Source: Promethearchaeota archaeon
GTDB taxonomy: Archaea > Asgardarchaeota > Lokiarchaeia > Sigyniarchaeales > SOKP01
NCBI GenBank assembly: GCA_048939995.1
Contig: JBHLOY010000007.1
Location: forward strand, 1-64,000
Direction: 5' to 3'
DNA: 64,000 nt
Shown piece after piece: positions 5,601 to 53,913 of the stretch; position 1 is the first letter of the stretch, and each line of letters opens with the position of its first letter. Both the position numbers and the translations under genes were made by a program. The notes below the pieces were generated by a model, which made no database searches, was not told where the DNA came from, and was given only the letters and a program-made list of their open reading frames with translations.

Positions 5601-5706
5601 TGGGAGAGGGGGGATTCGAACCCCCGACCCCTAGGTTTTTTGCTTTCGTACAATAGGTTTACGTAAGACCCAAACCTAGAATCATACCAAGCTAGACCAC
5701 CCTCCC
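5601..5706 (-). tRNA. tRNA-Pro(UGG) with a 32-nt canonical-position intron (5637-5668)
   Basis: Reverse complement gives acceptor GGGAGGG/CTCTCCC+A, D arm, anticodon stem CTAGG/CCTAG, loop TT-TGG-G^A, T arm GGGGGTTCGAATCCCCC. The intron forms a BHB (UUUG/CAAA central helix). CCA is not encoded. Confidence 0.95.
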
Positions 5707-44818: not shown

Positions 44819-45352
44819 TCATTTAAATCCATATTTTCCAACATGAAGAATTATTTCTTTTGCTAACAATTTAAAAGCTATATCTATATTTTCTCCGGTC
44901 TTACTAGATATTCTTAAATATTCAAAAAAGTTATATTTTTGCATAAATTCGAATATAAAATCACCAGAAAGCATAATTGATTCCTTCAAGTCTGATTTTG
45001 AGCCAATAAATAAAATGGGTAAATCAGGATTTTCTGTTCTGCATACATCCACCCACTCTCCTATTTTTTCTAAGGTAATAGGCCGGGTGGGATCAAATAA
45101 TAAAAGAGCCCCTTTTGCCCCTCTAGCATAATTTTTAAGAAGAAAGCGAAAGCGTTCTTGACCTCCAAAATCCCAAATTTGTAAAATAATTTTCTCATAA
45201 TCAAGCTCTATAGTTTTTAAGAAAAATTCAACACCAATTGTCATTTGCAAATTTTCAATGAATTTTCCTTCAATATACCTATGAAGCATTGTGGTTTTCC
45301 CAACTCCTCCATCTCCAGCAATAATTGTTTTAAAAACTTTCGGTTTGGACAT
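44819..45352 (-). CDS. Rab-like small GTPase
   Basis: GDGGVGKT, TIGVEF, LQIWDFGGQERFR, G4 variant SKSD, SSK. Confidence 0.93.
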   Translation of the reverse strand: MSKPKVFKTIIAGDGGVGKTTMLHRYIEGKFIENLQMTIGVEFFLKTIELDYEKIILQIWDFGGQERFRFLLKNYARGAKGALLLFDPTRPITLEKIGEWVDVCRTENPDLPILFIGSKSDLKESIMLSGDFIFEFMQKYNFFEYLRISSKTGENIDIAFKLLAKEIILHVGKYGFK

Positions 45353-45880: not shown

Positions 45881-46402
45881 TTAAAATATCTGTTTTTCTA
45901 ATATTCTTTTTGTTAATAAGTCAAAAGCAAATTTTACATTTTCTCCAGATTTGCTCGAAACTCGTAAATAGTCAAATAAATTAAAATCGCTCTTAAAATT
46001 CAATGCATATTCATCATTAACCATAATTTCATCCTGTAAATCGTTCTTTGTACCTAAAAATAAGATTGGAAGGTTTGGATTCCCCTTTCGACAAATATTA
46101 ACCCACTGTTCTAGATTTTCAAGAGTTATAGGGCGTGTTAGGTCGAACATAAGCAAAGCACCTTTCGCTCCTAATACATAACTTTCCAGCAAGAATCGAA
46201 AACGTTCCTGGCCTCCAAAGTCCCAAAGTTGGAGCGTACAATGTTGGCCGTCGATCTCAATCTCTTTAAGGAAGAATTCGACTCCGATCGTCATTTTTGT
46301 CTCAGCTGAAAACCTTCCTTCAACATAACGATGTAAGAGTGTTGTCTTACCTACACCTCCTTCTCCAGCTGTCAGGATCTTAAGTATAAATTTTTTAGGC
46401 AC
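45881..46402 (-). CDS. Rab-like small GTPase
   Basis: GEGGVGKT, TIGVEF, LQLWDFGGQERFR, G4 variant TKND, SSK. Confidence 0.93.
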   Translation of the reverse strand: MPKKFILKILTAGEGGVGKTTLLHRYVEGRFSAETKMTIGVEFFLKEIEIDGQHCTLQLWDFGGQERFRFLLESYVLGAKGALLMFDLTRPITLENLEQWVNICRKGNPNLPILFLGTKNDLQDEIMVNDEYALNFKSDFNLFDYLRVSSKSGENVKFAFDLLTKRILEKQIF

Positions 46403-49315: not shown

Positions 49316-49396
49316 AGAATAATTAGATAATATTATATTTTATTAAGGAACACTTAAAAAAATTATTTTTCGTTTTAATTGAATTAAACAAATTAG

Positions 49397-49402
49397 AAAA
49401 AA
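49397..49402 (-). terminator. Oligo-U tract just downstream of the permuted 5S precursor
   Basis: U6 on the minus strand, 3 nt after the 3' arm of the 16-bp stem; typical archaeal terminator signal. Confidence 0.4.
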
Positions 49403-49405
49403 GTG

Positions 49406-49591
49406 TTTTAACCACAAAAATTTTAGCGTTTCTGGGTTCAGATGGGACCAGGTATTTTCCTGTTTTACCATGACCGTAGCCTAAGCCACAGTTAGAAAGT
49501 TCCCACAAATCTCAATTGCAGTACTGATTTCAACGCAAAACAGTTTAACTTCCAGCGCATTACGATATGGATATGATTTTTGTGGTTAAAA
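49406..49591 (-). repeat. Perfect 16-bp inverted repeat (49406-49421 / 49576-49591) enclosing the 5S unit; predicted precursor processing stem
   Basis: TTTTAACCACAAAAAT ... ATTTTTGTGGTTAAAA. Confidence 0.9.
49430..49549 (-). rRNA. rrf: 5S rRNA, circularly permuted gene (3' half 49549-49485, UUAG linker 49484-49481, 5' half 49480-49430)
   Basis: 5' half: GCUACGGUCAUGGUAAAACAGGAAAAUACCUGGUCCCAUCUGAACCCAGAA, with the loop C CCCAUC.GAAC signature. 3' half: GUUAAACUGUUUUGCGUUGAAAUCAGUACUGCAAUUGAGAUUUGUGGGAACUUUCUAACUGUGGC, with loop E AGUA/GAA. Helices I, II, IV and V pair as in 5S, and helix III completes across the predicted junction. Confidence 0.88.
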
Positions 49592-49769
49592 AATCCATTA
49601 AGACCATCTTATAAGCTTGGCTAACTTTTCTCAAAATAGCTTGCTTATATGGTTTTAAGTAAATAGAATTAATAAAAGCTACTAATTAAATTTTATTATT
49701 ATAAACCATTAAATTTAAAAGCTAAAGTTCAGAGTCTGTTATTATCTAGAAGAACTCCGTCTATTAGAG

Positions 49770-52347: not shown

Positions 52348-53913
52348 ATGACACTAAATTTAGAAGATATTTCTGGAATAGGTAAGGCTACCGCTGAACG
52401 GATGAAAGCAGCAGGTATAGACTCAGTCGAAAAGTTAGCTTCCTGTAAACCAGAAGATCTAACAAAAATTAAAATTAAAGGCGTAGGGACATCAACAGCA
52501 ATCAAATATATTGCTAATGCAAAAGAATTATTAACTTCTAAGGAGAAACAAAAAGATCAACCTGCAAAAGAAGAAGGACCACAAGAAACCGAAACAAAAG
52601 TAGAGAAAGCACCTACTAAAAAGTATTCTCCCGAAAAAGCAAAGGAACTAGAGAATTTAATAAGACAACAAGCTGAATGCAACATTGGTTTAGTCGGGCA
52701 TGTAGATCACGGAAAGACTACATTAGTTAAGTCACTTACTGGAGATTGGACAGATAGGCACTCCGAGGAAAAAGAGAGAGGAATATCGATTAAATTGGGT
52801 TATTCTAACGCAACTATACTATACTGTCCTGAATGTGATGAATATCTCACATCATACATGGCACAAAAAGATCGCAAAAAAGGGGAACCTTCCTATAGTT
52901 GCAGAAGATGCGAAGGAAGTTTAATATTTAAAAGAAATATATCATTTGTTGATGCTCCTGGACACGAAATACTGATGGCTACAATGTTAAGTGGGGCTTC
53001 TTTAATGAATGGAGCTTGTTTACTTATTGCCGCTGATGAAACATGTCCTCAACCTCAAACTCGAGAACATCTTGCTGCTTTAAATATTGCGGGAATTGAA
53101 AATGTAATTATAATTCAGAATAAAATTGATGCTGTATCTAAGGAACAAGCATTTAAAAATTACCAACAAATTAAAAAATTCCTTAAAGGAACACCTATAG
53201 AAAATGCACCCATATTACCTGTCTCAGCAGTATTTAGTGCAAATATTGATCTTGTAGTCAAAGCGTTTGAAGAAGTAATTCCAACGCCAGAATTAAGTAA
53301 TGAGGAAGCATTTGAATTTTTAATAGCTAGATCGTTTGACATTAACAAACCAGGTACAGATATAAGTAAATTGAGAGGCGGAGTTATTGGAGGATCTGTT
53401 CTAAAGGGAAGAATTAAGGTCGGCGATGAGATAGAAATCAGACCAGGGATAAGAATTAAAAATAGTTATTCTCCTATTAATTCGAAAATAGTCAGTATAA
53501 GTCAAGGAATGAATCTATTGAATGAAGCTAAACCTGGTGGTTTAATTGGTCTAGGAACAAAATTGGATCCAGCATTAACTAAAGGAGACTCATTGATAGG
53601 GCATTTAGTTGGAATTCCAGGCACATTACCGGATGTTATTTCAGAGGTTGAGCTAAAAGTCCATTTACTTGAAAGAGTTATTGGTTCAGAGATGCAAATA
53701 AAAGTAACAGAACTTAAGCATAATGAAAAGTTATTACTGGTTGTAGGTACAGAGAAAACTGGGGGGACGATAACAAAAATTCTCAAAAATTCTTATATAT
53801 TACAACTAAACCCTCCAATTTGTATTCCCAGAGATTTTATCTTTGCAATCTCACGAATAATAAATCGAAGGTATAGGCTGATAGGTTATGGAGAACTAGT
53901 TAGCGCTAATTAA
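52348..53913 (+). CDS. eif2g: Translation initiation factor aIF-2 gamma with N-terminal helix-hairpin-helix extension
   Basis: NIGLVGHVDHGKT, RGISIKLGY, Zn knuckle, DAPGHE.LMATMLSGA, PQPQTREH, QNKID, RSFDINKPG, R.RLIGYG. Confidence 0.96.
   Translation: MTLNLEDISGIGKATAERMKAAGIDSVEKLASCKPEDLTKIKIKGVGTSTAIKYIANAKELLTSKEKQKDQPAKEEGPQETETKVEKAPTKKYSPEKAKELENLIRQQAECNIGLVGHVDHGKTTLVKSLTGDWTDRHSEEKERGISIKLGYSNATILYCPECDEYLTSYMAQKDRKKGEPSYSCRRCEGSLIFKRNISFVDAPGHEILMATMLSGASLMNGACLLIAADETCPQPQTREHLAALNIAGIENVIIIQNKIDAVSKEQAFKNYQQIKKFLKGTPIENAPILPVSAVFSANIDLVVKAFEEVIPTPELSNEEAFEFLIARSFDINKPGTDISKLRGGVIGGSVLKGRIKVGDEIEIRPGIRIKNSYSPINSKIVSISQGMNLLNEAKPGGLIGLGTKLDPALTKGDSLIGHLVGIPGTLPDVISEVELKVHLLERVIGSEMQIKVTELKHNEKLLLVVGTEKTGGTITKILKNSYILQLNPPICIPRDFIFAISRIINRRYRLIGYGELVSAN

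What the first reader, a model, noticed from the sequence alone, without database searches (positions are those of the whole stretch)
49426..49558. BHB-like splice motif whose predicted cuts rebuild 5S helix III exactly
Seen in sequence: the leader GCG-CUGG-AAG (49558-49549) pairs with the trailer CCAG-AAA-CGC (49435-49426). This gives a 3-bp outer helix, a 3-nt AAA bulge and a 4-bp central helix CUGG/CCAG. Established: archaeal splicing endonuclease cuts after the second nucleotide of each bulge, and excised BHB-bounded RNAs can be ligated into circles. Applying that rule gives CUGGAA^G and CCAGAA^A, so ligation yields CCAG-AA-GUU, the canonical helix III 3' strand with its AA bulge, with no base gained or lost. 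The leader CUGG also mimics the 5S's own CUGG (49451-49448), implying a pairing switch between precursor and mature folds. Caveat: the inner bulge is non-canonical (a 2-nt bulge closed by GUU/AAC, or an open loop), so a relaxed-specificity endonuclease may be needed.
Basis: partly seen in the sequence, partly recalled or inferred. Interest (0 to 1): 0.85.

Follow-up and report, generated by a model that had tools for sequence, protein, structure and literature searches.

The report
Permuted 5S rRNA gene, spliced ring
This Asgard archaeon writes its only detectable 5S ribosomal RNA gene back half first, between two tRNA-splicing-type cut signals, and environmental RNA holds the predicted cut-and-rejoined 120-base form, which explains why standard tools miss 5S genes in many of these relatives of eukaryotes.

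Summary
Confirmed, and part of something larger. The motif flanks a circularly permuted 5S rRNA gene (49549-49430, minus strand) in a Lokiarchaeia (Promethearchaeia) genome. The 3' half comes first and a helix-I tetraloop joins the native ends. Cutting after the second bulge base and joining gives a 120-nt ring that scores 44 bits against canonical 5S genes, versus 21 for the gene as written. Sediment metatranscriptomes from two studies contain exactly this join and nothing from the flanks. The joined form occurs in none of the genome or metagenome collections scanned, while the unjoined form does. The 4-bp helix, 3-nt bulge and outer helix hold in 29 of 31 distinct motifs at four permutation points, with covariation. 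Fourteen relatives also carry removable BHB introns inside the 5S. The inner side is an open loop (bulge-helix-loop), and the genome encodes a two-subunit endonuclease with the relaxed-specificity loop, plus RtcB. Not shown: which enzymes act, and whether ribosomes keep the ring closed. I found no paper on it. The closest case is Thermoproteus SRP RNA. This scan found the same system before in other Asgard genomes.

The parts
49609..49614 (-). TATA-like box (TTATAA), candidate promoter of a stand-alone transcript
   Evidence: Lies 26-30 nt before the AACCAY stem start in 23 of 30 genus loci; function inferred
49576..49591 (-). 5' arm of the 16-bp outer processing stem
   Evidence: Pairs with 49421-49406 in the minimum-energy fold; core conserved across the genus
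49549..49558 (-). Leader strand of the splice motif: outer GCG, central CUGG, AA^G; cut 49550/49549
   Evidence: RNA joint
49430..49549 (-). Circularly permuted 5S rRNA gene, the 120-nt excised and re-joined unit
   Evidence: RNA cover is exactly 49430-49549 with a back-joint of 120 in two studies; reopened ring 44.3 bits versus 20.7 as written
49485..49549 (-). Native 3' half of 5S (GUUAA, helix II 3' strand 49543-35, helix V, loop E AGUAC 49525-21, helix IV, helix I 3' strand 49491-85), encoded first
   Evidence: Aligns to positions 49-116 of the canonical 5S profile
49481..49484 (-). Tetraloop (UUAG; UUCG in most relatives) joining the native 3' and 5' ends on top of helix I
   Evidence: helix I paired in 322 of 322 cells with G-C/C-G/U-A exchange
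49430..49480 (-). Native 5' half of 5S (helix I 5' strand 49480-74, helix II 5' strand 49468-60, loop B, helix III, loop C 49446-36, CCAGAA), encoded second
   Evidence: Rfam RF00001 partial hit, 20.7 bits
49448..49451 (-). Internal CUGG, the mature helix III partner of CCAG, mimicked by the leader
   Evidence: Paired with CCAG in 184 of 184 cells with C-G/U-A covariation
49426..49435 (-). Trailer strand of the splice motif: central CCAG, bulge AA^A, outer CGC; cut 49430/49429
49406..49421 (-). 3' arm of the outer processing stem
49395..49405 (-). T-rich tract, candidate archaeal terminator
   Evidence: Sequence; function inferred

Best explanation
This is the cell's 5S rRNA gene in permuted order. 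A short stand-alone transcript folds into a 16-bp outer stem that brings leader and trailer together (transcript ends inferred). The leader CUGG takes the place of the 5S's own CUGG and pairs with CCAG, forming a bulge-helix-loop (shown by covariation). The (alpha-beta)2 tRNA splicing endonuclease cuts two bases 3' of each strand of the 4-bp helix, and RtcB joins the ends of the inner 120 nt, treating the 5S like an excised intron (enzymes inferred; joined product shown in RNA). CCAG then re-pairs with the internal CUGG, and helix III with its AA bulge is complete. The native ends are already closed by a tetraloop, so the mature 5S is most likely a covalently closed ring in the large subunit (inferred).
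For: RNA back-joint 49549->49430 in two metatranscriptome studies, as 150-nt contigs (120+30, the form a ring takes), with no flank cover; a third 150-nt contig of a relative also runs past the junction. Joined 24-mer in 0 genome and 0 metagenome records; unjoined form in 24 and 35. Geometry 29/31 versus at most 7/31 shifted; the outer helix, which lies outside the 5S, covaries. Four cut points in the class, a fifth register in other classes. Fourteen relatives have 29-31-nt BHB-type introns whose removal raises the 5S score by 12-16 bits. Only 5S-like locus in the genome. Relatives G075 and G060, with a full 23S assembled, also have only the permuted gene. uL5, uL18, RtcB and two EndA subunits are present. 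The catalytic subunit is closest to Aeropyrum EndA (E 5e-37) and keeps K44/R46, the loop needed for bulge-helix-loop cleavage (PMC3241643). Helix I is closed, mostly by UNCG loops. Precedent: PMC4731332.
Against: No cleavage or ligation assay. RNA evidence is three low-depth assembled contigs (depth 3-12) from close relatives, not raw reads; contigs cannot show ends, strand or abundance. A 3-nt microhomology blurs the register and allows template switching in principle. The motif is not the minimum-energy fold of this precursor. The 23S gene is not assembled in this genome, so a second 5S cannot be excluded from it alone. Circular 5S from ordinary genes has been read as a degradation product in other archaea (PMC12558985).
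Confidence: 0.72

Rival explanations
1. Same cut and join, but the ring is an intermediate that is reopened in the helix I loop to give an ordinary linear 5S, as permuted tRNAs are reopened at the acceptor stem.
For: Permuted tRNAs go through a circular intermediate (cited in PMC4267664). The loop is not invariant (UUAG, UUUG, UACG, UUCG), and one relative has a 31-nt longer linker (L075). Contigs cannot measure open versus closed molecules.
Against: The linker is only 4 nt, mostly a stable UNCG loop, with no spacer to remove. RNA contigs run through the loop without a break and with no precursor flanks.
Confidence: 0.15
2. The working 5S is a linear permuted molecule with ends in helix III (cut but mostly not ligated, like brown-algal mitochondrial 5S). 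The join in RNA is a minor by-product or reverse-transcriptase template switching on GAA.
For: Linear permuted 5S exists in brown-algal mitochondria (PMC4267664). 3-nt microhomology at the junction. Low depth.
Against: The break would sit in helix III's conserved AA bulge. Four to five different cut points all conserve exact, gap-free joining, including types without microhomology. Intron-bearing alleles need ligation anyway. The join appears in two studies.
Confidence: 0.1
3. The locus is a relic or assembly artefact, and the true 5S lies in the unassembled rRNA operon.
For: No 23S in this assembly. Two family-f1 genomes (G087, G015) carry a canonical 5S over the cut-off.
Against: Present in 32 of 36 genus genomes and 35 metagenome contigs. 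Helices fully conserved with compensatory changes. Expressed. Genomes with an assembled 23S have no other 5S. The two canonical hits look unlike the permuted family, and one genome (G015) has both, which suggests contamination (not tested).
Confidence: 0.03

Closest known systems
Permuted, circular SRP RNA of Thermoproteus tenax (Plagens et al. 2015, PMC4731332)
   Same: Gene-level permutation of a universal RNA, short leader and trailer forming a BHB, heterotetrameric EndA, join restores a conserved element, gene missed by annotation.
   Different: Here the RNA is ribosomal and the trait spans many families with several cut points and internal introns. Enzyme cleavage and the circular mature form were shown there and are only inferred here.
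Permuted mitochondrial 5S rRNA of brown algae (Valach et al. 2014, PMC4267664)
   Same: 5S gene in permuted order, helix I replaced by a closed hairpin.
   Different: There the product stays linear with ends at the three-way junction, and the paper describes no religation. Here the ends lie in helix III, carry a splice motif and are joined in RNA.
Permuted tRNA genes of Cyanidioschyzon merolae (Soma et al. 2007, cited in PMC4267664)
   Same: 3' half before 5' half; pieces cut and ligated through a circular intermediate.
   Different: tRNA rings must be reopened; here a tetraloop seals the native ends and no reopening is needed.
BHB processing and circularisation of archaeal pre-16S/23S; circular 23S (PMC12918454) and permuted 23S of Thermococcales (PMC7758197)
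   Same: Long processing stem plus BHB, EndA/RtcB circularisation of an rRNA.
   Different: Those genes are in normal order and cut outside the mature sequence. PMC12918454 describes the route for 16S and 23S 'but not 5S'. Here the cut lies inside the conserved core and joining is needed to make the sequence.
Circular 5S seen from ordinary genes in Sulfolobus, Halobacterium and Pyrococcus (PMC12558985; bioRxiv 10.64898/2026.03.23.713588)
   Same: Circular 5S molecules in archaea.
   Different: Those have variable ends, low amounts and no BHB, and are read as intermediates or decay products. Here there is one precise junction from a permuted gene.

Membership tests
5S rRNA (RF00001) | About 120 nt with 5S sequence motifs in canonical order | tested here: met
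   After the join: 120 nt, profile positions 3-115, 44.3 bits, E 2e-15 against a profile of 10 canonical relatives. As written in the genome it is below the Rfam cut-off (20.7 of 38 bits).
5S rRNA (RF00001) | Conserved helices with covariation | tested here: met
   Helix I 322/322, distal helix III 184/184, helix II 353/410 cells paired in family-f1 rings; helices IV and V not counted.
5S rRNA (RF00001) | Resides in the large subunit bound by uL5/uL18 | not testable with these tools
   Both protein genes are present; binding not tested.
Canonical bulge-helix-bulge motif | 4-bp central helix | tested here: met
   98% of cells paired in 31 distinct motifs; U-A/C-G exchange at position 2.
Canonical bulge-helix-bulge motif | 3-nt bulge closed by an outer helix | tested here: met
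   Outer 3 bp 96% paired with a 3-nt bulge versus 18% and 28% with 2 or 4 nt.
Canonical bulge-helix-bulge motif | Second 3-nt bulge closed by an inner helix | tested here: not met
   First inner position is U-C in 19 of 19 motifs of this type; so not a canonical BHB.
Relaxed bulge-helix-loop EndA substrate | One bulge, 4-bp helix, open loop, cuts 2 nt 3' of each helix strand | tested here: met
   Geometry; RNA join compatible with the register.
Relaxed bulge-helix-loop EndA substrate | Host has an (alpha-beta)2 EndA with the specificity-broadening loop | tested here: met
   Two subunits; one has the catalytic His and KPR aligned to Aeropyrum K44-R46, the other lacks the His.
Relaxed bulge-helix-loop EndA substrate | Cleaved by EndA in vitro | not testable with these tools
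   Bench assay needed.
Permuted-gene circular RNA (Thermoproteus SRP type) | Halves swapped in the gene, no normal copy | tested here: met
   own assembly lacks the 23S, so the 'no normal copy' part rests partly on relatives.
Permuted-gene circular RNA (Thermoproteus SRP type) | Ligated junction present in RNA | tested here: met
   Two studies, in near-identical relatives (1-2 differences).
Permuted-gene circular RNA (Thermoproteus SRP type) | Circle is the main mature form | tested here: inconclusive
   Contigs cover the whole ring and no flanks, but cannot give ends or proportions.

The most novel reading that the evidence does not exclude
Ribosomes of many Asgard lineages carry a covalently closed 5S rRNA made by obligatory tRNA-type splicing from a scrambled, sometimes intron-bearing gene. 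The cut point has moved several times between sites that the mature 5S fold offers to the endonuclease; types A and B are the two symmetric cut sites of the same helix III segment.
Probability: 0.55. Interest if true: 0.88.

Novelty: new variant of a known kind. Interest (0 to 1): 0.8.

Why it matters
It would be an rRNA whose gene is scrambled and whose sequence exists only after splicing. It adds 5S to the substrates of the archaeal tRNA-splicing machinery, a route the literature assigns to 16S and 23S but not 5S, and it includes introns in 5S. It explains low 5S detection in Asgard genomes: 47 of 151 over the Rfam cut-off in the phylum sample and 13 of 151 in the class sample. It also makes 5S gene order a testable character in the lineage closest to eukaryotes.

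Tried and rejected
Rfam at gathering threshold finds no 5S in the window; only a sub-threshold half hit. ViennaRNA folding does not select the motif in this precursor, so energy was not used as support. The automatic BHB picker chose wrong sites in several intron-bearing or truncated loci; these were redone with sequence anchors, leaving L004, L057, L065 and L069 unscored. In one search L091, L093, L097, L105, L107 and L109 gave no clean motif. The 31-nt insertion in L075 is not a BHB intron by my test. The tree of spliced rings puts type B in four places but is built from 120 nt with weak support; it is a hint only. A blind BHB search in tRNA genes was noisy. The sigma-70 promoter scan is not informative for archaea. 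Runs X3 and X4 have no recorded library type, so they are weak controls; the DNA control rests. The leader-trailer by-product could not be sought (one read-laying run; contigs only). Nine literature searches found no report of a permuted or intron-bearing archaeal 5S gene; the library lacks most subscription papers.

Full report
Observation. The leader GCG-CUGG-AAG (49558-49549) can pair with the trailer CCAG-AAA-CGC (49435-49426) as a 3-bp outer helix, a 3-nt bulge and a 4-bp central helix. This amount of pairing at a fixed 120-nt spacing occurs at 0.17% of window positions. A 16-bp stem (49591-49576 with 49421-49406) encloses the whole unit. A TATA-like box lies 27 nt before the stem core, at a spacing kept in 23 of 30 genus loci, and a T tract follows. 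The unit sits alone between two protein genes, a C25 peptidase and an unknown ORF.

What it encloses. Rfam sees only a half hit of 20.7 bits. The 120 nt between the predicted cuts are a 5S rRNA with the 3' half first. Joined at the predicted cuts and reopened at helix I, they align over positions 3-115 of a profile built from ten ordinary 5S genes of a sister family, at 44.3 bits against 20.7 for the gene as written. Of 576 junctions tried, the predicted one ties for first. The native ends are linked by a four-base loop on helix I, UUAG here and UUCG in most relatives. Across the family, helix I is paired in 322 of 322 cells and distal helix III in 184 of 184, with compensatory changes, so the RNA is under structural selection. 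Relatives with the same motif are named Promethearchaeota/Promethearchaeia, that is Lokiarchaeia.

Only copy. No other 5S-like sequence is in the genome, and uL5 and uL18 are encoded. The assembly lacks the 23S gene, so this genome alone cannot exclude a hidden copy. Two relatives in ten contigs with a full 23S (G075, G060) also show only the permuted gene. The locus is found in 32 of 36 genus genomes.

The motif is conserved as structure. With junctions fixed from 5S sequence anchors, 63 loci give 31 distinct motifs. The geometry 'cut two bases after a 4-bp helix, 3-nt bulge, outer helix' holds in 29; no shifted register exceeds 7. Kin are not independent, so this is a comparison, not a probability. 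The outer helix lies outside the 5S and switches among G-C, C-G, A-U and U-A, which is the cleanest sign of pairing. In many relatives leader and trailer are both CCGGAA, a direct repeat that could reflect duplication, but in this genome the leader CUGG differs from the trailer CCAG and complements it. The inner side is not closed: the first inner position is a U-C mismatch in all 19 motifs of this type. Folding energies do not favour it in this precursor (P about 0.003, 2.8 kcal/mol above the minimum), though they do in several relatives.

Several cut points. In the class there are four: before GUUAA (type A, this window), on the 5' side of loop C (B), in loop B (C), and one base 3' of A (D). 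Types B and D mostly have no end microhomology, yet the rule still gives the best junction among 169 neighbours in nearly all cases. Types A and B are the two symmetric cut sites of the same four base pairs of helix III, and both occur within one genus. Loci from about ten other families of the phylum are also permuted, many with a CGUG/CACG helix and a cut one base 5' of type A. Ordinary genes over the Rfam cut-off were seen mainly in five families, 47 of 151 phylum genomes and 13 of 151 class genomes. Fourteen relatives carry 29-31-nt insertions in helix IV or loop C. These fold as BHB-type introns, and their removal by the same rule raises the 5S score by 12-16 bits and, in helix IV, restores the intron-less allele.

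RNA evidence. Two sediment metatranscriptomes from different studies each hold a 150-nt contig with the joint 49549 to 49430, going back 120 bases, with one or two differences from the window. RNA cover is confined to 49430-49549. One run also holds a 150-nt contig of a more distant relative that runs past the junction into its own loop C. Two runs of unrecorded type show no joint. The joined 24-mer is in none of the 185,579 species genomes and none of the JGI metagenome records scanned, while the unjoined form is in 24 and 35. Limits: these are low-depth contigs that cannot show ends, strand or proportions, and the shared GAA allows four registers with the same product.

Enzymes. The genome encodes RtcB and two endonuclease subunits. 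One has the catalytic histidine and is closest to the Aeropyrum pernix alpha subunit (E 5e-37), including KPR at K44-R46; the other lacks the histidine. That loop is what lets the enzyme cut bulge-helix-loop substrates (PMC3241643).

Mechanism. Shown: permuted order, conserved motif, joined RNA, enzymes present. Inferred: transcript ends, EndA and RtcB as the agents, the switch of CCAG from the leader to the internal CUGG, and a closed ring in the ribosome. I put cut-and-join by the splicing machinery near 0.9 and the full model with a closed mature ring at 0.72. Reopening at helix I (0.15), a linear permuted RNA (0.10) and a relic locus (0.03) are the rivals.

Known systems and novelty. It works like the permuted, circular SRP RNA of Thermoproteus tenax (PMC4731332). 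Permuted 5S is known from brown-algal mitochondria, where it stays linear (PMC4267664). Archaeal 16S and 23S are circularised at BHB motifs outside the mature sequence, and a 2026 paper describes this for them but not for 5S (PMC12918454). Circular 5S from ordinary genes has variable ends and no BHB. Nine searches found no report of a permuted or intron-bearing archaeal 5S gene. This scan has noted the system in other Asgard genomes; those notes are not independent evidence, and the results above were obtained here. Verdict: a real and conserved feature, a new variant of a known kind, interest 0.8.

Noticed in passing
L006, L007, L028 (helix IV, CUGC/GCAG); L053, L055, L059 (helix IV, UUGC site); L010, L020, L021, L023, L024, L027, L029, L030 (loop C, UCCG/CGGG): 29-31-nt BHB-type introns inside the 5S gene at three sites; removal raises the 5S score by 12-16 bits.
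   Followed up: yes
L075 (G073:C7:19850-20400): 31-nt hairpin-like insertion next to the helix I linker; not a BHB intron by my test, possibly an expansion.
   Followed up: partly
L031, L083 (genus g1) and L059 (genus g18): Cut types A and B both occur within single genera; they differ by a 16-nt block moved from the 3' end to the 5' end of the gene, which suggests repeated shifts of the permutation point.
   Followed up: partly
window 5601-5706 (-): tRNA gene, probably Pro(UGG), with a 32-nt BHB intron after position 37; ARAGORN missed it in default mode.
   Followed up: partly
G000:C11, minus strand, dnaG: A 34-nt insert interrupts the GAIFGQTEGLL motif; removing it restores the frame. Fits earlier notes of BHB introns in mRNAs of this genome.
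   Followed up: partly
G000:C37:172380-172557 (-), C11:460731-460907 (+), C23:442-598 (-), C19:8320-8449 (+): tRNA genes with insertions at apparently non-standard positions (T loop, D loop, anticodon stem).
   Followed up: partly
window 52348-53913 (+): aIF2-gamma with an extra N-terminal ~105 residues containing a helix-hairpin-helix domain.
   Followed up: no
window 44819-45352 and 45881-46402 (-): Two small Rab-like GTPase genes flanking a PIN-like ORF, by sequence appearance.
   Followed up: no
L035 (G044:C1:1399892-1400758): One-contig 4.4-Mb genome of family f2 has three tandem ordinary 5S genes; this family has normal order while the loci examined in its sister families are permuted.
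   Followed up: partly
L032 (G087) and L043 (G015): Canonical 5S genes in two family-f1 assemblies, unlike the permuted family in sequence; G015 also has the permuted gene. Possibly contaminating contigs.
   Followed up: no
L093 and L094 (G177, one contig): Two permuted 5S-like loci in one genome.
   Followed up: partly
L065 (G043:C2:11400-11985): Permuted 5S with an extra hairpin right after the leader cut, possibly a nested intron; not resolved.
   Followed up: no
L116, L117, L122, L131: Records labelled Odinarchaeota, Hermodarchaeota, Nanopelagicaceae and Hodarchaeota carry the same Lokiarchaeia-type motif; labels or bins may be wrong.
   Followed up: no
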